DNA of 64,000 nt from Bacilli bacterium (GTDB taxonomy: Bacteria; Bacillota_I; Bacilli_A; ML615J-28; CAG-313): the NCBI GenBank assembly GCA_017411715.1, contig JAFQPO010000014.1, positions 174,258-238,257 of the forward strand. Direction: 5' to 3'. Shown here piece after piece: positions 8,794 through 56,152 of this stretch (positions are counted from its first letter, which is position 1; every line of letters begins with the position of its first letter). Position numbers and translations under genes: made by a program. A model generated the notes under the pieces. It worked only from the letters and a program-made list of their open reading frames with translations. It did no database searches and was not told the DNA's origin.

Positions 8794-9415
8794 TCAAAAT
8801 TCCAAAAAGCTGATTTTGAGAGCTTTAGACGAATATTTATCCAAAGAACTTAACTCAAACGCGCACAGAAGACTTTTATTACACTGCTGTTGTGGTCCTT
8901 GTAGTACATCGGTTGTTGATTTATTAAACAAATATTTTGATGTTACTCTATATTTCAGCAATTCTAATATGGATAGTTTAGATGAATTTAATCTAAGATA
9001 TCAAAATGCTAAGATTGTAGCTGATAAATATAATATTCCTATTATTATGGATGACTACACTCCCGAAAGCTATTATGAAAAAGTTGCGGGTCTAGAACAC
9101 TTAGGTGAAAAAAGTTTACGCTGTTATGAATGTTATAAAATGAGAATGGTTAGAACAGCTGAATTTGCTAAAAACAATGATTATGATTTATTTACAACTA
9201 CTATTTCTGTTAGTCCTCATAAACTTAGTGACTGGATTAATGAAATAGGCGAAGAACTCGCAAAAAAATATGATATTGAATTCTTGTATTCAAACTTTAA
9301 ATTACGTGATGGTTATAAAAAATCAATCATTATATCAAAAGAATTAGAATTATACCGTCAAGAATACTGTGGATGCGTATATTCTAAACAAGAAAGAGGT
9401 GGATCAGATGAGTAA
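8786..9415 (+). CDS. queH: Epoxyqueuosine reductase QueH (DUF208)
   Basis: Conserved Cys cluster LLLHCCCGPCS plus C-terminal CGC (EYCGCVYS), about 200 aa. Confidence 0.65.
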   Translation: MNNQNSKKLILRALDEYLSKELNSNAHRRLLLHCCCGPCSTSVVDLLNKYFDVTLYFSNSNMDSLDEFNLRYQNAKIVADKYNIPIIMDDYTPESYYEKVAGLEHLGEKSLRCYECYKMRMVRTAEFAKNNDYDLFTTTISVSPHKLSDWINEIGEELAKKYDIEFLYSNFKLRDGYKKSIIISKELELYRQEYCGCVYSKQERGGSDE

Positions 9416-10445
9416 TTTTACCAATCTATTTCAATATATAATGCCATCTGATGTCATGATGGATATGCTTAAAACTTATAAATGGTTAGGTAAAAATAAT
9501 GTTTACCAAGAAAAATTAAGCAATAATCTTAATACAATTATCGAACAAACAATTGAACGGGATACCTTTTTCCTCGCAACGATTCTTAATTTAGAAGTTA
9601 GTGATAGCAGAATGAGACTATTAATTACTAAAAATTCTGAACCTCGTACAAAAGATGAACGCATAATTACTAAATTAAAAGATGTTTTAATGACAATATC
9701 CAAATCTGCTAACCAATATCCTTTTAATTCTAGTGATTTACTTAGTATGATTAATACAGTATTTGGTAAAAACTACGCTGAATTCATTCCGGATGTTATT
9801 CCAGGTAGTAGAAAAAAACAAATTGCTTCAAGATCAGTTAGACATCTATTCAATTCAACTATTGATGAATATAATTTGTACTATGAAAAAAATCAATACG
9901 AGCATATTATCTTATCTTTAGTCTTATATATCGAAATTGCTAATTTAAATCCCTTTACTAAAGGAAATGAACTAGTAAAATATTTAGCTTTATACTATAT
10001 GATTTTAAGATGTGATGTAGAATGTTTCAAATATGTTAGTTTCTTTGAAATTTTATACGATCAATTAGATGTTTTTAACAAAGAACAAGTTGTAGCGAGC
10101 TTGAACTATAAAGATGGATTCATCAATATTTCAAATCTCGCAAGAATCACTTTTAAAATCATTAATTCTGGGTATTTAAGATTAGAAGAAGTATGTAGAA
10201 AATATCATTACGAAGAAAAATTTAATAAAAGCGATAATATTGAAAATACGATTCGTCAATTGCCTACTGTTTTTACAAAAGAAGACATTAAAACAAAGCA
10301 TCCATATGTTAGTGAGGCAACAATTAACCGTGTTTTAATGAAATTAAAAGATAATGGGTATATTGTTCCTTTATCAAAGGGACGTTCAGCAAGATGGATG
10401 AAGACAAATGACAATAATCCAATCTTTGATAATGTGGTGATCTAA
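9408..10445 (+). CDS. Fic/Fido-fold protein with degenerate active-site motif and C-terminal winged-helix (start moved to ATG at 9408, 8-nt overlap with queH stop)
   Basis: Motif HIILSLVLYIEIANLNPFTKGNELVKY matches the Fic HxFx(D/E)GNGRxxR position but with GNG to GNE and no Arg; C-terminal wHTH-like EATINRVLMKLKDNGYIV; GAGGTGGA SD 5 nt upstream of ATG 9408. Confidence 0.5.
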   Translation: MSNFTNLFQYIMPSDVMMDMLKTYKWLGKNNVYQEKLSNNLNTIIEQTIERDTFFLATILNLEVSDSRMRLLITKNSEPRTKDERIITKLKDVLMTISKSANQYPFNSSDLLSMINTVFGKNYAEFIPDVIPGSRKKQIASRSVRHLFNSTIDEYNLYYEKNQYEHIILSLVLYIEIANLNPFTKGNELVKYLALYYMILRCDVECFKYVSFFEILYDQLDVFNKEQVVASLNYKDGFINISNLARITFKIINSGYLRLEEVCRKYHYEEKFNKSDNIENTIRQLPTVFTKEDIKTKHPYVSEATINRVLMKLKDNGYIVPLSKGRSARWMKTNDNNPIFDNVVI

Positions 10446-29939: not shown

Positions 29940-31994
29940 TTATTCAGTGAATTTTTTCCAATCTTCTCCAAGAGCATCTAAAATTGTAGATGTTGGAATT
30001 TCAGCAGATTGTTTTTTATAATAAGCATCAAATTCAGCACGTTCTTTAGCAGCTTCTAATGCTTTAGCACTAACTGTTAAACGAGCACGTAATGGATCAC
30101 AATCCATAACTTGAACTTCAACTTCTGTACCAATTGGGAATACTTCTTCAACTTTAGCGATACGTTTAGCTGATGTTACTTCGTTAATTGGCATAAAACC
30201 AGTAACTTCTTGATAAGTAACTTTAGCACCACGATCTTCACTTGTTGCGATAACTACTTTAATAGCATCACCACGTCTTAAAGAAACATTAGCCCATTTA
30301 TTTTCTTTTGTCGCACGGTGTGATAAACTAACATGTTTTTTAGCATCATCAATCGCAGTAATTTTAACTTTGATAGTGCTACCTTCAGTGTATTGTCCAT
30401 CAATACGTTCATTAATTAGCCATGAATATTCACTATTTGGCATTAAACCGCTATATTCATCAGTTAATTTAATTAATAAACCAGCATCGATTACTTTAGC
30501 AACAGTTCCTTCAAATTCATCACCAACATGATATTGTTGTTTTAATAAATCCCATGGATGATCAATTAAAGCTTTACGTGAAAGACCAATTTTGCCTTCT
30601 TCCATTTTGATAATTTTAACTTTAACAACATCGCCAACTTTAACAAAGTCCGCAACATTTTTAACAAGTTTATGATCAAGTTCAGTACGGTGTAATAAAC
30701 CACTTACTTCACCTAATTCAACGATTGCACCAAAATCTAAAACATTAGTAACAGTACCTTCATGAATTTGACCAACTTCAAGTTTAGCAAGTGCTGCTTC
30801 TTTCTTTTGACGGTTGATTTTATTCATAGCTGCAGTATTAGAAACTGTAACACTAACTCTATCATGGTCAACATGAGTGATTAATACATCAATTTCTTCA
30901 TTTTTTAATTGATAAATAGCTTTTTCACTTAAATCAATATTTTTAATTGGTAAGAATACTTTGATATCATTATAAGATTTATAAAGCAAATCAGCACCAA
31001 TTCTACTAACACCTACAACTTTAGCTTTAATAATTTCATCACGTTCTTTAATTGCATCAAAAACTTTTAATTCTTCACGAGCATGGTATAGTTTTGTTGA
31101 TAATATTAATAAAGGCGCTCCAGTCTTTTTATCTTTAGCAAGTTGTTTAACAAGTCCTTTGAAGTCTCCTCCTTCCGCATATAAATCGCGTAGTTTTTGA
31201 CCTTCAATATAGCCTGATAAATCATTTGAATAGATTACAGCTTTTGTTTCTCCTGCTACTTCAAGATAAATTGCATCACTAGTGACATTATTAATAACAC
31301 CACTTACTTCTTGTCCTTCGAAAAATTTTAAATTACTCATTTTTTTAGAGCCCCTTTCATTTACTAAACTAATTATTTTTTCTACGACTTCATCTATTGT
31401 CATATCAGATGAGTCAATTACTATCGCATCATCAGCAACTTTTAGTGGGCTGATAGCTCTAGTTGAATCTTTGTGATCTCTAACATTTATTTCATTCAAT
31501 GTTTCTTCAAATGAAATGTCAAGACCTTTTTCAAGACGTTCTAATTGTCGTCTTCTTGCGCGGCATTCTGCAGATGCGTCTAAATAGATTTTTAAATCCG
31601 CATTAGGTAATACTACAGTACCAATATCACGGCCATCCATTACAACATTTTTACTTTCGCTGATTTTTCTTTGAAAATCAACTAACCAAGTTCTTACACG
31701 GCCGATTTTTGATGGAGTAGAAACATTAACTGTAACATCTACTGAACGAATATCAGTAGATACATCCTCACCATCAATAAAAATTTTATCATGATCAACA
31801 CTTAATACTGTATTATTAAGATAATCGTACTCGTCTTCATTCTCTAAATTGACTCCTAGACGAAGTCCTTTTAAAGTAATAGCACGGTACATTGCGCCTG
31901 TGTCAATGTATTGGAAATTTAGTTGTTTTGCGACAATTTTTGATATTGTACTTTTACCCGCTCCTGCTGGACCATCAATAGCTAATTTAAACAT
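29940..31994 (-). CDS. cmk: Fusion: cytidylate kinase (Cmk) + ribosomal protein S1 (four S1 repeats)
   Basis: N-terminus AIDGPAGAGKST (Cmk P-loop), about 220 aa, followed in frame by repeated S1 domains (GxV...G..V.V); start moved to ATG 31994 (GAGGTG SD). Confidence 0.85.
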   Translation of the reverse strand: MFKLAIDGPAGAGKSTISKIVAKQLNFQYIDTGAMYRAITLKGLRLGVNLENEDEYDYLNNTVLSVDHDKIFIDGEDVSTDIRSVDVTVNVSTPSKIGRVRTWLVDFQRKISESKNVVMDGRDIGTVVLPNADLKIYLDASAECRARRRQLERLEKGLDISFEETLNEINVRDHKDSTRAISPLKVADDAIVIDSSDMTIDEVVEKIISLVNERGSKKMSNLKFFEGQEVSGVINNVTSDAIYLEVAGETKAVIYSNDLSGYIEGQKLRDLYAEGGDFKGLVKQLAKDKKTGAPLLILSTKLYHAREELKVFDAIKERDEIIKAKVVGVSRIGADLLYKSYNDIKVFLPIKNIDLSEKAIYQLKNEEIDVLITHVDHDRVSVTVSNTAAMNKINRQKKEAALAKLEVGQIHEGTVTNVLDFGAIVELGEVSGLLHRTELDHKLVKNVADFVKVGDVVKVKIIKMEEGKIGLSRKALIDHPWDLLKQQYHVGDEFEGTVAKVIDAGLLIKLTDEYSGLMPNSEYSWLINERIDGQYTEGSTIKVKITAIDDAKKHVSLSHRATKENKWANVSLRRGDAIKVVIATSEDRGAKVTYQEVTGFMPINEVTSAKRIAKVEEVFPIGTEVEVQVMDCDPLRARLTVSAKALEAAKERAEFDAYYKKQSAEIPTSTILDALGEDWKKFTE

Positions 31995-32091
31995 AATACA
32001 CCTCGCATACCGACATATTATATCATAAAAAATTGGACTTTTCAAGAAAGTCACTTACTTTCATAAGTGAAGTCACCTTGAAATAGGTGAC

Positions 32092-38076: not shown

Positions 38077-38113
38077 AAAAATTACCTGTTAGATTTCTAA
38101 CAGGATTTTTTTA
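38075..38113. terminator. Bidirectional rho-independent terminator (ferredoxin on +, nif3 on -)
   Basis: aaaaaa-att-acctgttaga-ttt-tctaacagg-attttttt; perfect 9-bp stem flanked by A-run and T-run. Confidence 0.8.
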
Positions 38114-38115
38114 TG

Positions 38116-38904
38116 TTAATCTATATAATAATTGAAAGGATCTGCAATATGGGCAGATTTTTTTATTTCTACTTCACTAAACTCAGATTGTAAAAGCGTA
38201 ATTATCTCAGTTAATGCGACATCTTCAACCGCATGCGGTAGTTCAATTAAGACTAGGTTATTTTCTATAGCATCAAGCGCATTATTATGTCGGAATTCAC
38301 CACTGATATAGCAATCAACACCTAATCTTTGAGCACTATACATATCGCCTGCACCACCGCCTGCTACCATTCCGGCTTTTTTAATTCTTTTATCTAAATT
38401 ACCGACTGTTCTTACGACATTAATTGATAATTTTTCAGAAATAATTGAGATTAATTCTCTAGCAGTGATATTGTTACAATTAAAAGTTCTCACAAATTGA
38501 TCAGGAATAAATTCATAGTTTTCTTCTTCGTTAGAAACAAATCCCATTTTTTTAATCAAAGTATCATTCAATCCACCTTTGGAAATATCAAAGTTTGTGT
38601 GCATAGCAATAATATTTAAATCATTTGTGAAAATTTTCTTTAAATTTCTACCAAGCACTGATGTATAATTTAAATTTAATAAAGGTGAAAACATAAAAGG
38701 ATGATGAGAAACAATCAAGTTCACATCATTTTTTATAGCTTCATCAATTACGTCTGATGTAACATCAAGTGTAACTAGCACTTTTTTAACGCTTGCGGTC
38801 GGATTACCAAATTGTAGTCCTATTTTTCCTTTATCAAAACTACTGGCATATTCAATTGGAAATTTATTATCTAAAAATGTTAGAATGTCTTTTACTAATA
38901 ACAT
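38116..38904 (-). CDS. Nif3-family dinuclear metal-centre protein (YqfO/YbgI-like, short form)
   Basis: HHPF motif (LIVSHHPFMF) and C-terminal metal-binding region; trmK...nif3 synteny. Confidence 0.8.
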   Translation of the reverse strand: MLLVKDILTFLDNKFPIEYASSFDKGKIGLQFGNPTASVKKVLVTLDVTSDVIDEAIKNDVNLIVSHHPFMFSPLLNLNYTSVLGRNLKKIFTNDLNIIAMHTNFDISKGGLNDTLIKKMGFVSNEEENYEFIPDQFVRTFNCNNITARELISIISEKLSINVVRTVGNLDKRIKKAGMVAGGGAGDMYSAQRLGVDCYISGEFRHNNALDAIENNLVLIELPHAVEDVALTEIITLLQSEFSEVEIKKSAHIADPFNYYID

Positions 38905-38907
38905 ATT

Positions 38908-40071
38908 TTAAACCTCTTTTAATTCTCTTAATTGTTTAATCCTAGCAGGATGTCTTAATCTTCTAATAGCTTTAGATTCAATTTGTCTAATTCTTTCACG
39001 TGTTACTCCGAATTCTAGCCCTACTTCTTCTAATGTTTTAGGTTGATTATCATCAAAACCATAACGCATTCTAATAACTTTTTCTTCGCGTGGCGTAAGT
39101 GAAGATAGAAGTCTATTAATAGCTTCTTTATTAATTTTATTTTCAGAATAATTGAACGGATCTAAAATTGAAGTATCTTTAACAAAATCAATAGTTGTTG
39201 TATCATCATCTTCTGATACAGTTTTATCAAGTGATACAGTATCTAAAGATACATTTAGCAAATATTCAACTTTTGAAATATCCATTGAAGTAGCATTAGC
39301 AAGTTCAATGGTAGTTGGTTCTCGGTTATATTTTTGACTTAATATTCTTTTAGCTCGATTAATCTTATTGATAGCATCATGTAAATGAACCGGTAATCTT
39401 ATCATTCTTCCTTGGTCCGCAATGGCTCTAGAAATTGATTGTTTAATCCACCATGTTGCGTAAGTTGAAAATTTGAAACCTTTAGTTGGATCAAATTTAT
39501 TGACAGCCTTAATTAATCCCATATTTCCTTCTTGAATTAAATCAAGAAACGATAAACCACTACCTATATATTTTTTCGCATTAGGTACAACTAATCTTAA
39601 ATTTGATTCAATTAAAATATTTCTAGCTACTTCACCCTCTAAAATCTTTTGTTCAATATCACTTCTAGCAGAATTAGTCAAAGTAATATTATTTTCGTCA
39701 GCAAATTTCAAATATTCTTTTAATTCATTAGCCTCTAGATTTAATTTACCATATTCTACTTCTTGTTCATATGTCAATAAGCTAATTTGACCAATTTCAT
39801 GTAAGTATAAACGGACCGCATCATTATGATATGAATGAGACTGAGATTCCTCAAATTCATTTAAGTCTATCTCAGCCTTTTCATTATATTCATCTGAATC
39901 AATATCTTCAACAATCAATAATTCTTCTTTTTGTAAATAAGCAATTACTTCATCATAAGAATATTGAGTACTATCATTTAATATTTCATTAATAGTCTCT
40001 TTTTTTATATACCCATTTAAAGAAGCTATTTTTTTAATTTCTTCAACTTTTTCTAGAAAGTCCTTCTTCAT
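38908..40071 (-). CDS. Second full-length RpoD-like (group 1/2) sigma-70 factor
   Basis: Regions 1.2-4.2 present; region 2.4 ([18 protein letters not shown]) and region 4.2 ([19 protein letters not shown]) are nearly identical to sigA at 40737-42011, while the N-terminus and region 3 diverge; start set at ATG 40071 (GGGGGA SD). Confidence 0.8.
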
Positions 40072-40747
40072 TGATGTCCCCCACATTATTTTTTATTATT
40101 AACATTTCCCTTTTAATTTTTTTATAGCTGTCGCTACTTTCATTAAGTCCTCTAATAATATCATTCAAATGATTATATCTAATTGACCATTTGTCAATAA
40201 ACACTTTAGATTTATTTCTAAGCAAGACAGGTCCTAATAAACACTCATCATCACTCAGTTCAACTAATTCATTAGTTGGTACCACACAAAACGCTTCATA
40301 GTACTTATTATTTTCAAAAATAATCATTTCATCAGCAATTTTAAAATTATTGCTTGATAAAAATTTCCTAATTAAGAATGGTTTTGTATGAGGAACTAAA
40401 ATGATTTTTTTAAGTCTTTTAGCTCTTTGTAAATGTTTCGATATAATTTCAATAATATTATCAGCACCCATTCCACAAATGCAAACAGTGTCAACTTCTT
40501 CATTCAAATCGTCCATCCCCGAAGACAGAGTGAAGAAAACTTCCGCATTGTGATCTAAGTCTTTGAAGTTTTGTTTCGCTGATGATAATGGTCCTTCTTT
40601 ATTATCTATATTTTGAATGTATTTAACATTTTTACCTAAAGATAATATTCCTAAATATCCATGATCACAGCCGATATCAGCAATTTTATCAGATTCCCCA
40701 ATCCAAGTTAAAATGCTTTTTAATCTTTGTGATATATTATCTATCAT
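40043..40747 (-). CDS. trmK: tRNA (adenine22-N1)-methyltransferase TrmK
   Basis: SAM-binding [11 protein letters not shown]-terminus aligns to B. subtilis TrmK from the M8 codon (ISQRLKSIL); sits immediately downstream of sigA as in Bacillus yqfN. Confidence 0.7.
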
Positions 40748-42011
40748 AACCACTAGGTGCGTGTTCACGAAGTTTATTTAAACGAGCAGGGTTACGAAGA
40801 CGTCTAATTGCTTTTGCTTCAATTTGTCTAATACGTTCACGTGTCACGCCTAACATACGACCAACTTCTTCTAAAGTACGTGGATGATTATCATCTAATC
40901 CATATCTTAATCTAATAACTTTTTCTTCACGAGGAGTTAAAGTTTGAAGAATTTCTTCAATTTGTTCATGATATAAGCGTTCTTGAGTATATTCAAGTGG
41001 ATTAGGATTATCATTATCCGCGATGAAATCTCCTAAGTTAGAATCTTCTTCTTCACCTACTGTTGCGTCAAAAGAAATAGTTTCTTGAGCAATTTTTAAG
41101 ATTTGTTGTACTTTTTCAGGTGTTGTTTTCATTTCTATTGCAATTTCCTCTGGAGTAGGTTCGCGGCGTTTTTCTTGTGTTAATTTACGAGAAATACGCA
41201 TTAAACGATTAATTGTTTCAACCATATGAACAGGAATTCTAATTGTACGGCCTTGGTCCGCAATGGCACGTGTAATAGATTGTCGAATCCACCATGTTGC
41301 GTATGTAGAGAATTTTCCCCCACGAGTAGGGTCAAATTTATTAACTGATTTCATTAATCCCATATTACCTTCTTGAATTAAATCAAGGAAAGATAAACCA
41401 CGACCAACATAACGTTTAGCTACCCATACTACTAAACGAAGGTTAGCTTCAATTAAAATATTTCTTGCTTCTTCACCTTGAGCAATTTTTTCAGTTAATT
41501 CAACCATTTCTTCAGCTGGTATAGTTTTACCAGCTTTTTTATAAGCTTCAATTTTTTCTTGGCAAGCAAGACCTTCTTGAACAGTTCTTGCAAACTCAGC
41601 TTCTTGAGTAATTGATAATAATTCAATTTGACCAATATCTCTTAAATACATTTTAACGGGGTCATCAGCTTGATGAATACCAGATGTAAAATCATCAAAG
41701 TCAGCAACTTTAATTTCACTTTCAACAACTGATGCTAATTCTTCAATTTCTTCATCAATTTCTACTTCATCTGCAAATGCTTCAAAATCATCATCAAATT
41801 CTTCAATTAATAAATCATCAACATCTCCAGCATTGCCATCACTATCACGTGTAATTTCAATACCTTCATTTTCTAAATACTTAATTATTTCATCTAATTG
41901 TTCTTCACTAGGATCTTTAAAGATTTCAATAATTTTACTTAAAGGAATATATTGTTCCTTTGCTGCGAATTCTTTAACCATCTCAAGTTCAATTTTATAT
42001 AATTCTTCCAT
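40737..42011 (-). CDS. sigA: RNA polymerase primary sigma factor SigA/RpoD
   Basis: Acidic region 1.1, regions 2-4 complete; dnaG-sigA operon synteny. Confidence 0.9.
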
Positions 42012-42019
42012 AGTACCTC

Positions 42020-43783
42020 CTACAATGTTTTATTTTTATAAAGCATTAAGTAATCATCGTATTTATCATAATCATTCTTAACATCTTCTAACATTTTCTT
42101 TTTCAAATCATCCATAAAGAAATTATACAAAGTCTTTAGGCATTGTCTAAATGCATCTATATTATTTGCATCAATCTCTTCTTTACTAATAATTTTATTA
42201 ATTAACTCACGATCAGGATCTGTTAAATAATAATTTTCCACAAAATCAACTGCATTTAGATTGTTATTTTGATTATAATAATCCCCTATCTGCAATAATA
42301 CTGTATAATATGGAATAAGTTCCACATTTGGGATATTCAAGTCAATAACTTTAACATATTCCAAATATAATTTTTTATCTTGAAGCACACATTTAATAAT
42401 TGTTTCGTATGCTTTAAATACTTTGTTAGGTATTTTATTACGTTTTCTTGTAACAACCTTAGTAGGGATATTATCTTCAGTATTTGGTGTATGCTCAACT
42501 CTAACACTACCAAAGTCACCCATCAAGCTTTCAAGTGAAATATTTAAAATCTCGCTTAATTTATTTAAATAAAACTCAACTGATGTTTTAGAAACATTCC
42601 CTCTTAAAAAGCTAAACACTTCTTGTTTACAATTTTCGACTGATTTAACATCATCAATCATTAAATTATCAACAGCTACTTTAAATAAATAGTCATAAAC
42701 ATTCAAAGCACCAGTTGATAAAGCATTGTTTAACGCATCTGCTCCATATTTTTTTAAGAAATCATCAGGATCAAGACCTTCAGGTAAAGCAATACACGTT
42801 GGCATAACATTAAATTCACTAAAGACTAAATTAGCTTTTTTGGTTGCGTTAATACCAGCTAAGTCACCATCAAAACATAAAATGACATTATCACAAATTC
42901 CTAATAGTGATTTAATATGATTTCTTGTTAGAGCAGTCCCCATTGTAGCAACGCTATTAGTAACTCCAGCTTTATATGCGGCGATAACATCCATAAAGCC
43001 TTCAAAAACGTACATTTTATTTAAACTTCTTGCTTGAAGTGATGCATTCTTAAAGTTATATAAAATGTCACTTTTTCTAAATATTGGATTTTCAATTGAA
43101 TTAATATATTTAGCCGTCTTATCAGTTGAATTAAAGATACGACCACTAAAAGCACAAACACTTCCTTGATGATTGGTAATTGGAAACATAATCCGATTCC
43201 TAAAACTATCAACTATTTCTCCTTGGGGATTTTGACTAACTAAGCCAAGTTCACTTTGAACAACCATATCTATTTTGTGTTCATTTAAAGCAAGGTGTAA
43301 GTAATTTGTACCATTAGGAGCAAGTCCAATTCTAAATTTAGAAATTATTTCATCACTAATACCACGTTCATGTAAATATTTTAAAGCTGCAAGTCCTTCT
43401 TTAGAATTTTTCAAATAAAATTCATAAAAGTTAGCTGCTTCTTCCATCGCATCATAATAGATTTTTTTCTTTTCTGATTCTGGATCATTATATAAATTAA
43501 TTGTAATACCAATTCTTTTAGCAAGTTTAACTACTGCTTCTTGGAAACTAATTTGTTCAAATTTAGAAACAAAACTTATTACATCCCCACCAGTATTACA
43601 ACTAAAACATTTAAACATCTTTTTCTCAGCACTTACTGACATTGAAGGATTAGTGTCATGATGAAAAGGACAAACACCCCAAAATCCTTTACCTTTTTGA
43701 GTAAGGGGTAGGTATTCACTAACAACATCAACAATATTCACTTCGTCAATAATCTGTTTTACTATCTTATTGTCAATCATCAT
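42020..43783 (-). CDS. dnaG: DNA primase DnaG
   Basis: Zn-ribbon [13 protein letters not shown]...CFSC, TOPRIM EGFMDV, upstream of sigA. Confidence 0.9.
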
Positions 43784-43836: not shown

Positions 43837-45213
43837 TTAGAAAATATTTACTCTATCAATTAGATAATTTCTTAAATCTTCTACTTTTACCCTAACTTGT
43901 TCCATAGAATCACGTTCACGAACAGTTACAGTACCATCTTCTAGTGTATCAAAGTCAACAGTAACACAAAATGGTGTACCAATAGCGTCTTGACGGCGAT
44001 ATCTTTTACCAATTTTACCAGATGTATCAAAATCAGTAACTAATACTTTTCTTAAGTCATGATAAATTTCTTTAGCTTTATCATTTAATTTATTAACAAG
44101 TGGTAATACTGCTACTTTAAATGGCGCAAGTTCAGGATGTAAATGTAATACTTCACGAGTTTCGCCACCTTCAAGTGCTTCTTCTTCGTATGCATTTGTT
44201 AATACCGCAAGTAGTAAACGTTCAACACCTAGACTTGGTTCAACAACGTATGGTAAATATTTTTCATTAGTTTCTGGATCTAAATATTCTAAGTTTTGTT
44301 TAGAATGTTTTTGATGTACGCCTAAATCATAGTCTGTTCTATCAGCAATACCCCAAAGTTCACCCCAACCAAAGAAAAATTTAAATTCAAAGTCACTAGT
44401 TGCTTTAGAATAGAAAGATAATTCATGTTGTTCATGATCTCTAATACGTAATGCTTCAGGTTTTAAACCTAAATCTAGTAAAAATTGATAACAATAATCT
44501 TTCCAGTATGCGAACCATTCTAAATCAGTATCTGGTTTACAGAAGAATTCTAATTCCATTTGTTCAAATTCACGTGTTCTAAAAATAAAGTTACCTGGTG
44601 TAATTTCGTTTCTAAAGCTTTTACCAATTTGACCAATCCCAAAAGGTACTTTCTTACGAGATGTTCTTTGAACATTTTTAAAGTTTACAAAAATACCTTG
44701 TGCAGTTTCAGGACGTAAATAAACAGTATTTTTAGCATCTTCAATTACACCTTGATTAGTTTTAAACATTAAGTTAAATTTACGAATATCTGTATAATCT
44801 AATGCGCCACATGTAGGGCATTTAATGTTATGTTCTTTAATATAAGTAATTAATTCTTCATTACTTAAACCGTCACCAGTAACTTCCCCGCCAGTGAAAT
44901 CTTCAATTAGTTTATCAGCTCTAAATCTAGAGTGACATGATTTACAGTCAATTAAAGGATCACTAAATCCTCCAACGTGTCCACTAGCTACCCAAGTTTC
45001 AGGATTCATTAAGATAGCAGCATCAAGTCCAACATTATATTCATTATCTTGAACAAAACGTCTCCACCATAATTTTTTAATATTATTTTTAAGTTCTACG
45101 CCAAGTGGTCCATAGTCCCATGCGTTAGCAAGGCCCCCATAAATTTCACTACCTTGATAAACAAAACCTCTTTCTTTTAAATAAGAAACAAATTTTTCCA
45201 TTGTCATTTCCAT
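43837..45213 (-). CDS. glyQS: Glycine--tRNA ligase (alpha2 dimeric type, GlyQS)
   Basis: Class II aaRS motifs; about 458 aa alpha2-type GlyRS; preceded by a T-box leader. Confidence 0.9.
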
Positions 45214-45234: not shown

Positions 45235-45420
45235 AAATAATAAAAAAAGCCCCTAACAAGAGACTTAAGGGACGAGTATACACCCGCGGTTCCACCCAAA
45301 TTACGACAATGTCGTCACTTTTTATAACTAAACGCTCCGAAACGCCTTTTCAAAATACCCGCATACAAGTTTCCACGAACCACTTGCTCCCTATAAATTA
45401 AGTATTCTTACTTCTTTTCA
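45235..45420 (-). promoter_or_regulatory. T-box riboswitch leader of glyQS (tRNA-Gly sensing)
   Basis: Minus-strand AAUUUGGGUGGAACCGCGGGUG (reverse complement of 45281-45302) matches the T-box consensus AAnnnGGGTGGnACCGCG; followed by a terminator hairpin + U8 (reverse complement of 45241-45275) just upstream of the glyQS SD. Confidence 0.7.
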
Positions 45421-45505
45421 TCATTGCTGTATATATTATACCAAAAAATATTAAAAAATGCAACTTATATAAACAAAAAAGCAAACATAAATGATATGTC
45501 TATTG

Positions 45506-49217: not shown

Positions 49218-50219
49218 TCAATATTCAACGAATGTTGCAATGTTTTCGTATTTATTAACTAAGAATGTAAATTCATAGCATTCTTCATCTTCTAAAAAGG
49301 AAATTACTTTCATATCAATAATATATTCTTTATTTAAATCATGTGAATTATTAAAATTTTTCTTAACGATACTTTCCGCATACATTCTTCCAATATCACA
49401 ACTTCTAATATCTCCTATCGTCTTTTTTTCAATCTCATAATATCTAAATATTTTAAAAAAGAAAAAATCAAATAATACTTTACTATTATCACTTTCTTTA
49501 AAAGATAAGCTAGTAGATTTTAACTTTTCTACACTATATTCATAATATTTATCAACTACAACTTTCTCATAAGTAAAAGTTCTGGCATAAATGTATGCTA
49601 ATGGTGAAACTATCTCATTTTCACTTAAAGTACCGCTAATTAAAAGATCACCTTTTTTAACAACATCACCCAAATTAATGTTTGATTTACCTCGTAAAAC
49701 AATCATTTTATCTACTAACCCATTTGCGGATGATATAATATCTCCTTTTTTTAGAGTAACTTCAGGTACTATTTCAACATCTATCTTATCAATGTCAATA
49801 TATAATATTGAAGTATCTTTTCTAAGTCCTATCCATGCATACTCAGGATGATTTATTCTTAACTTAGATTCTAGAGTATTAAGTTTTTGACTAGGATAAT
49901 AAAAAGGACCAACTTTTTTCATTGATGTCATTACTTCATGGTAAACACTTTCATCCTCATAATTACTAAAAGATATTTCTCTTATATATAAGGAAGAAGA
50001 CACAATAACTCCAAACATTATTAGCAGTCCTAAAAGAATAATTAAGTATCGTTTTAAAAACTTTTTACCATTTTCTAAGATTTTATTATTTCTACTATCC
50101 CTTATTTCATAATAGATTTCTCCATCTACAAACTTAGCATTATAAAAATCATTTGGCACATCTATTAAAAAATCATCTTTTTCTTTTCTTTGACTAACGT
50201 TTAATGATAATTTCATCAA
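49218..50219 (-). CDS. yqfD: Sporulation protein YqfD-like (single-TM)
   Basis: Position between yqfC-like and phoH as in B. subtilis; one central TM; no strong motif (synteny-based). Confidence 0.5.
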   Translation of the reverse strand: MMKLSLNVSQRKEKDDFLIDVPNDFYNAKFVDGEIYYEIRDSRNNKILENGKKFLKRYLIILLGLLIMFGVIVSSSLYIREISFSNYEDESVYHEVMTSMKKVGPFYYPSQKLNTLESKLRINHPEYAWIGLRKDTSILYIDIDKIDVEIVPEVTLKKGDIISSANGLVDKMIVLRGKSNINLGDVVKKGDLLISGTLSENEIVSPLAYIYARTFTYEKVVVDKYYEYSVEKLKSTSLSFKESDNSKVLFDFFFFKIFRYYEIEKKTIGDIRSCDIGRMYAESIVKKNFNNSHDLNKEYIIDMKVISFLEDEECYEFTFLVNKYENIATFVEY

Positions 50220-54673: not shown

Positions 54674-56152
54674 TTATAATATTATAGCAATTACTCCACC
54701 ACGACCATCATTAATTACTTTTGATAATGATTCTTTATATTTAAATTCAACATCACTAGGCACATTATAAACTTTAGCTTTAATACCATCAACCATTACA
54801 TCACTAAGTTTACGGCCAAAAATCTCACTATTCCAGATTTCTTCAATATCACTATCAAATTGATTATTCATATGATTAATTAAAGCTTGTGATTGTTCTT
54901 CTGTACCAATAATTGGTTCAAAAGTTGTCTCCACATCAACTCTTACCATATGAATAGCCGGTGCGGTTGCTTTTAATTTAATACCATATCGACCATTTTG
55001 TTTAATTAATTCAGGTTTATCTAAAACCATATCAGCTTGAGATGGTATTGCTAAGCCATAGCCTACTTCATTTAGTGATGCCATAGCCGGTTTAATCTTT
55101 TGATAATGAGTTTTAGCCTCTACCATTTCTTGGAGTAGATCGATAAATGAAGCTTTATCTGAAATATCAATCCCTGTAATTTCCAAAGTAACATCATTAT
55201 AAACACTTTCATCTACATCAAGTTCAAATGTAACAACTCCAGTTCCTGGATTAATATCACTGATTGCAACATTTTCGAATATATCGCAACTTGCTAAACT
55301 ATCTCTAACACTAAAAATATCTCGCATTTTACGATTACCATTAGTCGTAGAATCAATTAATTCATTAAATCTTGCTTTATAACTAACATTATCACTTAAA
55401 TTCTTAAACCAATCTGGTACTAAAATATTCATTTCTGCTATTTCAAACTCATCAAGAGCTTTTTCTAATATTTTATCTACTTCATTTGCGTCCATATTAG
55501 CAACATCGACCGCAATTACACTAACATTATACTTTTGGCTAAGTGACTCTACTAATTCATTTACTTCTAATGAATTAGGATTTTTTGTATTTAATAAAAT
55601 AATAAATGGTTTATTCAAAGTTACTAACTCTTCTATAACTTTAGCTTCAACTTCTTCATAATCACTACGTTCAAATTCTCCAAATGAACCATCACTAGTT
55701 ACCACAATCCCAATATTAGAATGTGATTCAATTACTTTCTTAGTACCAATTATAGCAGCTTCTTCAAAAGGTATTTCTTCTTGGAACCATGGAGTTTTAA
55801 CTAAACGATTACTACCATCTTCATTTAAATACCCACTTGCCTTAGGCATAACAAATCCAACACAATCAACTAGTCTAATTTGACAAGACACTGACTCGCC
55901 AACTTCAATTTTAAAATTGTTACTCGGAACAAACTTAGGTTCAACAGTCATTACCATTTTACCATCACCACTTAGTGGTAATTCATCCGCAATTTTTTGA
56001 TAAAATTCTTGATCTTCAATTAGTGGTAATACTTTTGCTTCCATGAAACGACGAATGAAAGTACTTTTACCACTTCTTACCGCACCAACAATACCTAGAT
56101 AAATCTCACCTTTAGTACGTAGTGCTACTTCTGATATTACATTATCACTCAT
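54674..56152 (-). CDS. spoIVA: Stage IV sporulation protein A (SpoIVA ATPase, spore coat basement layer)
   Basis: N-terminus aligns to B. subtilis SpoIVA (GEIYLGIVGAVRSGKSTFIRRFME... versus GDIYLGVVGAVRTGKSTFIKKFME...); 492 aa. Confidence 0.85.
   Translation of the reverse strand: MSDNVISEVALRTKGEIYLGIVGAVRSGKSTFIRRFMEAKVLPLIEDQEFYQKIADELPLSGDGKMVMTVEPKFVPSNNFKIEVGESVSCQIRLVDCVGFVMPKASGYLNEDGSNRLVKTPWFQEEIPFEEAAIIGTKKVIESHSNIGIVVTSDGSFGEFERSDYEEVEAKVIEELVTLNKPFIILLNTKNPNSLEVNELVESLSQKYNVSVIAVDVANMDANEVDKILEKALDEFEIAEMNILVPDWFKNLSDNVSYKARFNELIDSTTNGNRKMRDIFSVRDSLASCDIFENVAISDINPGTGVVTFELDVDESVYNDVTLEITGIDISDKASFIDLLQEMVEAKTHYQKIKPAMASLNEVGYGLAIPSQADMVLDKPELIKQNGRYGIKLKATAPAIHMVRVDVETTFEPIIGTEEQSQALINHMNNQFDSDIEEIWNSEIFGRKLSDVMVDGIKAKVYNVPSDVEFKYKESLSKVINDGRGGVIAIIL

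What the first reader, a model, noticed from the sequence alone, without database searches (positions are those of the whole stretch)
38908..40071. Second full-length primary-like sigma factor inserted between trmK and nif3, with identical promoter-recognition helices
In Bacillus the order is dnaG-sigA-trmK(yqfN)-nif3(yqfO). Here an extra 387-aa RpoD-like gene sits between trmK and nif3. Its region 2.4 ([18 protein letters not shown]) and region 4.2 ([18 protein letters not shown]) are essentially identical to SigA, so it should read the same -10/-35 elements. Region 1.1, the non-conserved region and region 3 are divergent. This looks like a local duplication retained as an alternative housekeeping sigma, possibly stage-specific in a spore former. 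Its start is coupled to the trmK stop, which is 27 nt upstream.
Basis: seen in the sequence. Interest (0 to 1): 0.55.

Follow-up and report, generated by a model that had tools for sequence, protein, structure and literature searches.

The report
Extra primary-like sigma factor gene
An uncultured, spore-gene-carrying gut or rumen-type bacterium has a second, intact copy of its main transcription-initiation factor inside the same operon as the first. The copy keeps the promoter-reading residues but has a rewritten "finger" that controls how transcription starts, which makes it an interesting but not unprecedented kind of gene duplicate.

Summary
A 387-aa RpoD/SigA-like ORF lies at 38908-40071 on the minus strand, between trmK and nif3, 1 kb downstream of the canonical sigA (40737-42011). 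One detail is wrong: trmK's stop is not upstream. The two genes overlap by 29 nt.

The gene is functional. It is intact in three species-level lineages, with dN/dS 0.05-0.10 (0.015 in region 2).

It arose from this lineage's own sigA. It shares lineage-specific insertions and rare residues and nests in the family's SigA clade in 96% of bootstraps. It occurs only in a genus-level clade. Syntenic relatives have trmK directly followed by nif3.

The residues that read -35, -12 and TGn are kept or conservatively changed. However, 32 positions that are at least 90% conserved in ordinary primary sigmas are changed. The clearest change is in the sigma finger: GEEDDSxLGDFI becomes [12 protein letters not shown]. 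The partner sigA has lost a near-invariant melting-region aromatic (E. coli Y425 position, now G).

Best reading: a co-transcribed primary-like sigma that reads SigA-type promoters with altered initiation kinetics. Timing of expression is unknown.

Precedents exist, such as C. difficile SigA2 and group 2 sigmas. I class it as a new member of a known kind, of moderate interest.

The parts
38908..40071 (-). sig2: the second primary-like sigma factor gene (387 aa, stop codon included)
   Evidence: ORF and sequence. Pfam regions 1.2, 2, 3 and 4. 46% identical to the neighbouring sigA. dN/dS 0.05-0.10.
40077..40082 (-). Shine-Dalgarno GGGGGA for sig2, inside the trmK coding sequence, 5 nt before the ATG
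   Evidence: Sequence. Conserved as GGGGGA/GGGGGG in L250 and L001. The 45 nt at 40118-40074 are 96% identical between the window and L001, against about 80% background.
40043..40071 (-). 29-nt overlap between the trmK 3' end and the sig2 5' end
   Evidence: TrmK is about 10 aa longer at its C-terminus in sig2-bearing lineages than in relatives, and the extension is this overlap.
39910..40071 (-). sig2 residues 1-54: N-terminal three-helix domain homologous to sigma region 1.1
   Evidence: BLAST alignment with sigA starts at residue 8. hhalign against the family SigA N-termini gives probability 95.3%, E 2e-8, and the family against Bacillus-type region 1.1 gives 96.3%. The AF2 model has helices at 3-19, 24-31 and 39-48. 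The Pfam PF03979 hit is sub-threshold.
39823..39909 (-). sig2 residues 55-83: acidic linker, about 33 aa shorter than in sigA
   Evidence: Alignment. pLDDT below 50.
39628..39822 (-). sig2 residues 84-148: region 1.2 (DAVRLYL instead of DPVRMYL) plus the ~32-aa insertion between 1.2 and 2.1
   Evidence: Pfam region 1.2. The insertion is shared with SigA of Acholeplasma/Haloplasma/Izemoplasma-type lineages and is absent from Bacillus and Clostridia.
39406..39627 (-). sig2 residues 149-222: region 2 (core binding, -10 melting and recognition)
   Evidence: Pfam. dN/dS 0.015. Aromatics F, F, Y, W, W are kept. Q437 equivalent kept. R436K and T440S. VVSIAK becomes VVPNAK.
39172..39240 (-). sig2 residues 278-300: region 3.2 'sigma finger' with a rewritten motif, [14 protein letters not shown]
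   Evidence: GEE[DE]DSxLGDF is present in all 40 ordinary SigAs aligned and, with one- or two-residue variants in five, in all 115 non-sig2 database hits. Only the five sig2 clusters differ.
38911..39141 (-). sig2 residues 311-387: region 4, with the -35 recognition helix [18 protein letters not shown]
   Evidence: Pfam region 4. R584, E585 and R588 equivalents are kept.
40737..42011 (-). sigA: the canonical primary sigma factor (424 aa), parent-type paralogue
   Evidence: Passes the TIGR02393 RpoD_Cterm cutoff (363 against 354), whereas sig2 does not (338). 69-77% identical to SigA of the nearest relatives. Has G at the Y425-equivalent position.
40043..40747 (-). trmK (tRNA m1A22 methyltransferase), upstream neighbour. 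The ATG at 40747 is the start called on related contigs; a GTG at 40768 is also open.
   Evidence: Pfam TrmK..
38116..38904 (-). nif3 (DUF34/NIF3 family), downstream neighbour. It starts 3 nt after the sig2 stop.
   Evidence: Pfam. Sequence.
38085..38104 (-). Terminator-like hairpin after nif3, the probable operon end
42020..43783 (-). dnaG, the gene upstream of sigA in the same tightly packed gene string

Best explanation
sig2 is a functional, lineage-restricted paralogue of the primary sigma factor. It arose from this lineage's own sigA and became fixed between trmK and nif3 inside the dnaG-sigA operon.

Shown:
- It is intact and under strong purifying selection in three species-level lineages.
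- It has the complete primary-sigma architecture: an N-terminal region-1.1-like domain, region 1.2, the lineage's own insertion, and regions 2, 3 and 4.
- It keeps the residues that bind core and that read the -35, -12 and TGn promoter elements.
- It is fixed for substitutions at 32 positions that are nearly invariant in ordinary primary sigmas. These concentrate in the region 3.2 finger, region 3.0, region 2.1 and region 1.2.

Inferred:
- It is transcribed with sigA, trmK and nif3 as one operon, and translated from its own Shine-Dalgarno that lies within the trmK 3' end.
- It competes with SigA for core RNA polymerase and directs it to the same kind of -35/-10 promoters.
- It behaves differently after binding, in open-complex stability, initiating-nucleotide dependence, abortive cycling and promoter escape. 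It would therefore shift transcription among SigA-type promoters rather than switch on a separate regulon.

Whether it acts in a particular growth or sporulation stage is unknown.
For: - Identity and architecture.
- Selection: window vs L001, dN/dS 0.098 overall and 0.015 in region 2. Window vs L250, dN/dS 0.052. SigA is 99.3% and sig2 94.6% identical at the protein level, so sig2 changes about 6 times faster but is clearly constrained.
- Origin: sig2 shares the ~32-aa insertion and the 'QS...ADQGR' signature of its family's SigA. It groups with that family clade in 192 of 200 NJ bootstraps. It shares otherwise rare residues with its own sigA at conserved sites: S174, T278 (P in 38 of 39 others) and A376.
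- Distribution: only five protein clusters at 84% identity or more exist in 5.8 billion proteins, and the next hits are ordinary RpoDs at about 50%. The same trmK-sig2-nif3 arrangement is found in L001-L007 and L250. Relatives L009-L015, L021, L022 and the fully syntenic L253/L254 have trmK directly followed by nif3.
- Recognition residues kept: R584/E585/R588, Q437, H455, and the aromatics at 425/427/430/433/434. T440S, R436K and E458D are conservative. The residue roles come from PMC2613000 and PMC4496690.
- Finger divergence. Finger mutations in E. coli sigma70 change promoter-complex stability, iNTP Km and DksA/ppGpp sensitivity (PMC6265461).
- Operon packing: an 8-nt gap, then overlaps, then a 3-nt gap, with a terminator only after nif3.
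Against: - There are no expression data. Co-transcription is inferred from gene spacing only.
- Internal promoters inside trmK cannot be excluded. A TTGACA-17-AATCAT match lies at 40197-40169, but promoter-like matches in the region are no more frequent than in shuffled sequence (56 found against 57.6 expected).
- T440 and R436 equivalents are changed, so a subtle shift in -12 preference is possible.
- The kinetic consequences of the finger changes are extrapolated from E. coli alanine and deletion mutants. Here the four acidic residues and F522 are retained, so the effect could be small.
- The NJ tree places sig2 at the base of the family clade rather than next to its own sigA, which is probably long-branch attraction. 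The timing of the duplication is therefore not settled.
Confidence: 0.6

Rival explanations
1. Separately regulated, stage-specific primary-like sigma, as in C. difficile SigA2. On this reading sig2 has its own promoter inside trmK (for example SigH- or sporulation-sigma-dependent) and replaces SigA in stationary phase or during sporulation.
For: C. difficile has sigA1 (exponential growth) and sigA2 (stationary phase, SigH-dependent promoter) (PMC7438776). The window organism carries SpoIVA, YqfD and SpoVIF. The 45 nt before the sig2 ATG are unusually conserved at the nucleotide level.
Against: sig2 sits inside the sigA operon, overlapping trmK. By eye I found no SigH-like AGGA...GAAT motif in the 130 nt upstream. 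Promoter-like matches are not enriched. The conserved 45 nt also encode the native TrmK C-terminus and the Shine-Dalgarno.
Confidence: 0.2
2. A subfunctionalised pair. After duplication each copy lost part of the ancestral function: sigA lost the Y425-equivalent aromatic and sig2 lost the canonical finger. Both would now be needed for full housekeeping transcription.
For: The window sigA has G where 42 of 43 aligned sigmas and 119 of 120 database hits have F or Y. The sigA of L250 has the same G, while sig2 keeps F. The window sigA deviates at 8 conserved positions, the third-highest count among the 40 ordinary primary sigmas aligned (sig2 excluded), and four of those positions also deviate in sig2. 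Y425 is one of the region 2.3 aromatics implicated in strand opening (PMC4496690; PMC2613000).
Against: SigA is still very conserved between species (99.3%, dN 0.004) and passes the RpoD model cutoff. As I recall, single Y425 substitutions in E. coli have modest effects; I did not verify this here. No essentiality data exist.
Confidence: 0.12
3. A redundant dosage copy, or a copy drifting towards loss.
For: It evolves about 6 times faster than sigA at nonsynonymous sites and falls below the RpoD_Cterm model cutoff.
Against: dN/dS is 0.05-0.10 overall and 0.015 in region 2. The ORF is intact in every contig recovered. The 32 unusual substitutions are themselves conserved among lineages that are only 84% identical, which indicates a new constraint and not decay.
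Confidence: 0.04
4. A horizontally acquired or phage- or defence-system-borne sigma factor.
For: A weak generic match to the MzaA defence-associated sigma model.
Against: The MzaA score is 322 bits against a cutoff of 800, and it is the same for sigA. The best viral-contig relative is 48% identical. There are no mobile-element genes nearby. GC content is like its neighbours. The lineage-specific insertion and signatures are shared with the host's own SigA.
Confidence: 0.02

Closest known systems
Clostridioides difficile SigA2 (CD1498), a second group-1-type SigA alongside SigA1
   Same: A spore-forming Firmicute carries two full-length primary-like sigma factors, and one of them sits in the dnaG-sigA operon (PMC7438776).
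   Different: C. difficile sigA2 lies about 50 kb (43 gene numbers) from sigA1 and has its own SigH-dependent promoter. Here the copy is embedded in the sigA operon between trmK and nif3. The two arose from independent duplications, because sig2 nests in its own family's SigA clade. I did not compare the two sequences directly.
Group 2 sigma factors (E. coli RpoS, cyanobacterial SigB-E, Streptomyces HrdA/C/D, mycobacterial SigB)
   Same: They are close relatives of the primary sigma with similar -10/-35 recognition, and they modulate rather than replace housekeeping transcription (PMC4598750).
   Different: Group 2 sigmas are defined as lacking region 1.1. sig2 keeps an N-terminal region-1.1-like domain. 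Non-essentiality is untested.
Canonical Firmicute SigA/RpoD (e.g. B. subtilis SigA, PDB 7CKQ)
   Same: Same domain set. It is the best sequence match among solved structures (E 1e-83), and primary sigmas are the best fold matches.
   Different: sig2 falls below the RpoD equivalog cutoffs. It differs at 32 near-invariant positions, including the finger motif.

Membership tests
Group 1 (primary) sigma-70 / RpoD-SigA | Conserved regions 1.2, 2, 3 and 4 all present | tested here: met
   Pfam PF00140, PF04542, PF04539 and PF04545 all score above their cutoffs.
Group 1 (primary) sigma-70 / RpoD-SigA | N-terminal region 1.1 domain | tested here: met
   Pfam PF03979 is only sub-threshold (12.3 bits against 22.5). 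However, hhalign to the family SigA N-termini gives probability 95.3%, and those match Bacillus-type region 1.1 at 96.3%. The AF2 model shows three helices followed by a disordered acidic linker. The homology is therefore transitive and not direct.
Group 1 (primary) sigma-70 / RpoD-SigA | Scores above curated RpoD equivalog cutoffs | tested here: not met
   TIGR02393 scores 338.1 against a cutoff of 354, and NF006666 scores 344 against 572. The neighbouring sigA passes TIGR02393 (363.4).
Group 1 (primary) sigma-70 / RpoD-SigA | Canonical region 3.2 finger motif G-[DE]4-S-x-L-G-D-F | tested here: not met
   sig2 has [11 protein letters not shown]. The canonical core (G...DS-x-GDF) is present in all 40 aligned SigAs and in all 115 non-sig2 hits.
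Group 1 (primary) sigma-70 / RpoD-SigA | Essential, the major vegetative sigma | not testable with these tools
   This needs genetics or expression data. The organism is uncultured.
Group 2 sigma factors | Close sequence relationship to the primary sigma in regions 1.2-4 | tested here: met
   46% identical to its own sigA, and 48-50% to relatives' RpoD.
Group 2 sigma factors | Lack of region 1.1 (definition in PMC4598750) | tested here: not met
   An N-terminal domain homologous to the family's region 1.1 is present.
Group 2 sigma factors | Non-essential, stress or stationary-phase role | not testable with these tools
   No expression or knockout data.
Group 3 sigmas (SigB/F/G, SigH, FliA) and ECF | Best match to those family models, above cutoff | tested here: not met
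   SigBFG TIGR02980 scores 130 against 234 and SigF scores 119 against 321. All of the top models are RpoD-type.
C. difficile SigA2-type second SigA | Orthology, or a shared duplication event | tested here: not met
   sig2 nests within its own family's SigA clade in 192 of 200 bootstraps and carries that family's insertion and signature residues. C. difficile SigA2 itself was not in the tree.
C. difficile SigA2-type second SigA | Own SigH-dependent promoter, expressed in stationary phase | tested here: inconclusive
   I saw no AGGA...GAAT motif in the upstream 130 nt, and the sigma-70 promoter scan was not above chance. There are no transcript data.
MzaA (defence-system sigma) | Score above the NCBIfam cutoff and MZA gene neighbourhood | tested here: not met
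   321.7 bits against a cutoff of 800. sigA scores the same against the PADLOC model. The neighbours are trmK and nif3.

The most novel reading that the evidence does not exclude
The two co-transcribed sigmas are a subfunctionalised housekeeping pair. SigA has lost the Y425-equivalent melting aromatic and sig2 has a rewritten sigma finger, so neither is a fully canonical primary sigma. The cell would then need both: sig2 for promoters that are hard to open, and SigA for efficient priming and escape. This would be a natural experiment that separates promoter opening from initial transcription in one operon.
Probability: 0.12. Interest if true: 0.6.

Novelty: new member of a known kind. Interest (0 to 1): 0.35.

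Why it matters
Extra primary-like sigma factors are one of the ways bacteria re-weight housekeeping transcription, and very few have been described in Firmicutes. This one offers a naturally selected variant of the sigma finger. It keeps the acidic tip and F522 but replaces the flanking G, S, L and G residues. It is paired with a SigA that lacks a conserved melting aromatic. Biochemical comparison of the two proteins on the same core enzyme would show which steps of initiation those residues tune. Beyond that, it is a genus-restricted duplicate in an uncultured organism, and it does not change current concepts.

Tried and rejected
- Metagenome-contig scan with sig2. It was uninformative about distribution.
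- Viral-contig scan. Nothing was closer than 48%, so I dropped a phage origin.
- PADLOC and NCBIfam MzaA hit. It is generic to any RpoD-like protein and far below cutoff.
- Sigma-70 promoter scan. It found 56 matches against 57.6 expected by chance, so it cannot be used to argue for or against an internal promoter.
- Search by eye for SigH-, SigE-, SigF-, SigG- or SigK-like motifs upstream of sig2. Nothing convincing, and this was not a rigorous test.
- Tally of rare shared residues to place sig2 in the tree. It is noisy in variable regions, and only the three shared residues at conserved sites (S174, T278, A376) carry weight.
- The NJ tree puts sig2 at the base of the family clade. I read this as probable long-branch attraction and not as evidence for an old duplication, because the subclade signature residues are shared. 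I could not run ML or AU tests.
- Look-up of window ORF 9369-10445 for context: not on record.
- Foldseek search of the AF2 model. It only confirmed the primary-sigma fold. pTM is low (0.38) because the domains are flexibly linked.

Full report
**Observation**

All the genes in question are on the minus strand. Listing ORFs and reading the sequence gives this string:
- glyQS (43837-45213)
- dnaG (42020-43783)
- sigA (40737-42011, 424 aa)
- trmK (40043-40747, or 40768 if the GTG is used)
- a 387-aa ORF at 38908-40071, here called sig2
- nif3 (38116-38904)

Pfam confirms TrmK and DUF34/NIF3 for the two neighbours, and sigma-70 regions 1.2, 2, 3 and 4 for both sigmas. sig2 is 46% identical to sigA across essentially its whole length (E 1e-123). 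The ATG at 40071 is preceded by GGGGGA with a 5-nt spacer, and gene callers on other contigs use the same start.

One detail is wrong. The trmK stop (40045-40043) lies downstream of the sig2 ATG, so the genes overlap by 29 nt. TrmK is about 10 aa longer in sig2-bearing lineages than in relatives, and that extension is exactly the overlap.

**Is it a live gene?**

The same protein (99% identical) is found on at least 13 metagenome contigs in the same context. A 95% relative (L250) has the full dnaG-sigA-trmK-sig2-nif3 string. An 84% relative (L001) has trmK-sig2-nif3.

Nei-Gojobori estimates:

| Comparison | dN/dS | Note |
|---|---|---|
| Window vs L001, whole gene | 0.098 | |
| Window vs L001, region 2 | 0.015 | |
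| Window vs L001, region 4 | 0.050 | |
| Window vs L250, whole gene | 0.052 | |

Between the window and L250, SigA is 99.3% identical and sig2 is 94.6% identical (dN 0.004 against 0.023). sig2 is therefore clearly constrained but evolves about six times faster than sigA. The pseudogene and neutral-copy readings are rejected.

**Where did it come from?**

- A search of 5.8 billion proteins finds only five clusters at 84% identity or more. After those the hits drop to ordinary 421-423-aa RpoDs of 'Bacilli/Acholeplasmatales' MAGs at about 50%.
- In GTDB genomes the nearest SigAs are 53-77% identical.
- Every relative whose flank is long enough (L009-L015, L021, L022) has trmK directly followed by nif3.
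- The P0012 lineage (L253/L254) shows the same dnaG-sigA-trmK-nif3-fer4-UPF0154-plsY-parE neighbourhood minus sig2, which is an 'empty site'.
- The P0107 lineage lacks both sig2 and nif3.

An NJ tree of 43 sigmas puts the sig2 clade on a long branch attached to the family clade that contains the window's sigA. In 192 of 200 bootstraps it is sister to or inside that clade.

Independent of the tree, sig2 carries three kinds of shared signature:
- the ~32-aa insertion between regions 1.2 and 2.1 that marks SigA of Acholeplasma/Haloplasma/Izemoplasma-type lineages and is absent from Bacillus, lactic acid bacteria and Clostridia;
- the 'QS...ADQGR' signature of the closest subclade;
- residues shared with its own sigA that are otherwise rare at conserved sites: S174, T278 (P in 38 of 39 others) and A376.

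GC content matches the neighbours. No phage relative is closer than 48%, and no mobile-element genes are nearby. The exact timing is not resolved, because the basal NJ placement is probably long-branch attraction.

**What is conserved and what has changed?**

I mapped residues to E. coli sigma70 numbering. The mapping is self-consistent with every residue named in PMC2613000, PMC4496690 and PMC6265461.

Kept in sig2:
- the -35 contacts R584, E585 and R588;
- Q437 (-12) and H455 (TGn);
- R441, R448 and R451;
- all five region 2.3 aromatics (F, F, Y, W, W).

Conservatively changed: R436K, T440S and E458D (E in the 84% relative).

By contrast, sig2 differs at 32 positions that are at least 90% conserved among 40 ordinary primary sigmas. 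Those sigmas themselves deviate at 0-11 such positions, with a median of about 2. The changes are shared by all three sig2 lineages and cluster as follows:

| Region | Ordinary SigA | sig2 |
|---|---|---|
| 1.2 | DPVRMY | DAVRLY |
| 2.1 | VVSIAK | VVPNAK |
| 2.1-2.2 loop | GRG | GSG/GNG |
| 3.0 | [12 protein letters not shown] | [12 protein letters not shown] |
| 3.2 (finger) | P-[IV]-G-EE[DE]D-S-x-L-G-DFI | [14 protein letters not shown] |

The canonical finger core is present in all 40 aligned SigAs and in all 115 non-sig2 hits from the database search. Only the sig2 clusters differ. In the finger the four acidic residues (E. coli 513-516) and F522 are retained, while the flanking G512, S517, L519 and G520 are replaced.

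sig2 also falls just below the curated RpoD_Cterm cutoff (338 against 354), whereas sigA passes (363).

**Architecture**

- The N-terminal 54 residues align with the N-terminus of sigA.
- A profile of sig2 N-termini matches the family SigA N-termini at 95.3% probability, and those match Bacillus-type region 1.1 at 96.3%.
- The AF2 model (mean pLDDT 72.9) shows three N-terminal helices, a disordered acidic linker (55-84, about 33 aa shorter than in sigA), confident sigma2, sigma3 and sigma4 domains, and a low-confidence finger loop, as expected for free sigma.
- The best solved-structure matches by sequence are SigA of B. subtilis, S. aureus and C. difficile, and primary sigmas also head the fold matches.

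sig2 therefore has group 1 architecture. It does not fit the textbook definition of group 2, which lacks region 1.1 (PMC4598750).

**Expression context**

The genes from dnaG to nif3 are packed tightly:
- an 8-nt gap between dnaG and sigA;
- overlaps between sigA and trmK, and between trmK and sig2;
- a 3-nt gap between sig2 and nif3;
- the only terminator-like hairpin follows nif3 at 38104-38085.

A T-box leader precedes glyQS. Promoter-like matches are no more frequent than in shuffled sequence. The 45 nt before the sig2 ATG are 96% identical between the window and the 84% relative, against about 80% background. That stretch encodes the native TrmK C-terminus and the Shine-Dalgarno, so dual coding constraint is a sufficient explanation.

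Co-transcription with sigA and translation from its own ribosome-binding site is the simplest inference, but it is an inference.

**Organism**

The window has about 31% GC and uses TGA as a stop codon (trmK ends in TGA). It encodes SpoIVA (54674-56152), YqfD and SpoVIF. 'Spore former', or at least a carrier of sporulation genes, is therefore supported. There are no other sigma-70-family genes in the window.

**An unexpected companion observation**

The window's canonical sigA has G at the position of E. coli Y425 ([12 protein letters not shown]). F or Y is found there in 42 of 43 aligned sigmas and in 119 of 120 database hits. The sigA of L250 has the same G, while sig2 retains F. Y425 is one of the region 2.3 aromatics implicated in strand opening.

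The window sigA also deviates at 8 conserved positions, the third-highest count among the 40 ordinary SigAs. Four of those positions also deviate in sig2. This raises the possibility of complementary divergence (subfunctionalisation). I rate it at about 12%.

**Mechanism**

I judge the following most likely (confidence 0.6 overall, about 0.9 for identity and origin, about 0.5 for the kinetic part). sig2 binds core through an essentially canonical region 2.2 and recognises SigA-type -35/-10 (and TGn) promoters. It differs in post-recognition steps, because the finger, region 3.0 and region 1.2 are the parts that have been remodelled and then held fixed.

In E. coli, finger mutations stabilise otherwise unstable rRNA-type promoter complexes 2-15 fold, raise iNTP Km 2-3 fold and blunt DksA/ppGpp repression (PMC6265461). 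A natural finger variant would therefore redistribute transcription among promoters of the same sequence class.

Rivals, with my confidence in each:
- a separately regulated stationary-phase or sporulation sigma, as for C. difficile SigA2, which has a SigH-dependent promoter (PMC7438776): 0.2
- a subfunctionalised pair: 0.12
- a drifting or redundant copy: 0.04
- a horizontally acquired, phage-borne or defence-system sigma: 0.02

**Comparison with known systems and novelty**

Second primary-like sigmas are well known. Examples are group 2 sigmas of cyanobacteria, actinomycetes and proteobacteria, and SigA2 of C. difficile among Firmicutes. This one is an independent, genus-restricted duplication. 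It is unusual in four respects:
- it sits inside the sigA operon;
- it retains a region-1.1-like domain;
- its finger motif is rewritten;
- its partner SigA has an atypical melting region.

I file it as a new member of a known kind, with interest 0.35.

Noticed in passing
window 40737-42011 (-), sigA residue 231 (RGGKF): The canonical SigA has glycine at the position of E. coli sigma70 Y425, a melting-region aromatic. That position is F or Y in 42 of 43 aligned sigmas and in 119 of 120 database hits. The SigA of the 95% relative L250 also has G, while sig2 keeps F.
   Followed up: partly
window 45265-45433 (-): A T-box leader (Rfam RF00230, 102 bits) lies upstream of glyQS, at the head of the glyQS-dnaG-sigA gene string. 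Its terminator-like hairpin is at 45266-45247.
   Followed up: no
window 29940-32054 (-): A single 704-aa ORF fuses a cytidylate kinase domain to ribosomal protein S1 repeats (a cmk-rpsA fusion). It is called as one 684-aa gene on related contigs.
   Followed up: no
window 54674-56152 (-), 49218-50219 (-); SpoVIF seen on same-species locus L089 6738-6977 (not located in the window): SpoIVA (all three Pfam domains), YqfD and SpoVIF are present in a ~31% GC lineage whose nearest named relatives are labelled Bacilli or Acholeplasmatales MAGs. This lineage therefore retains sporulation genes.
   Followed up: partly
L004 7030-7033 and L007 1058-1061 (dnaG codon 248): Two JGI contigs of the same species have a 1-nt deletion that splits dnaG into 252-aa and 331-aa ORFs. 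The window and the other contigs are intact. This is either an assembly error or a strain variant.
   Followed up: partly
window 40074-40118 (-): The 45 nt before the sig2 start codon are 96% identical at the nucleotide level between the window and the 84% relative L001, against about 80% for flanking coding sequence. The stretch encodes the TrmK C-terminus and the sig2 Shine-Dalgarno.
   Followed up: partly
window 38908-40071 vs 40737-42011; L250: Synonymous divergence between the window and L250 differs markedly along the operon: dS 0.16-0.18 for dnaG and sigA, 0.23 for trmK, and 0.36-0.45 for nif3 and sig2. This could reflect codon-usage constraint on sigA or recombination within the operon.
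   Followed up: no
P0006, P0007, P0008: Three database 'sigma factors' of 452-627 aa contain internally repeated RpoD segments. They look like misassembled chimeras and inflate the hit scores.
   Followed up: no
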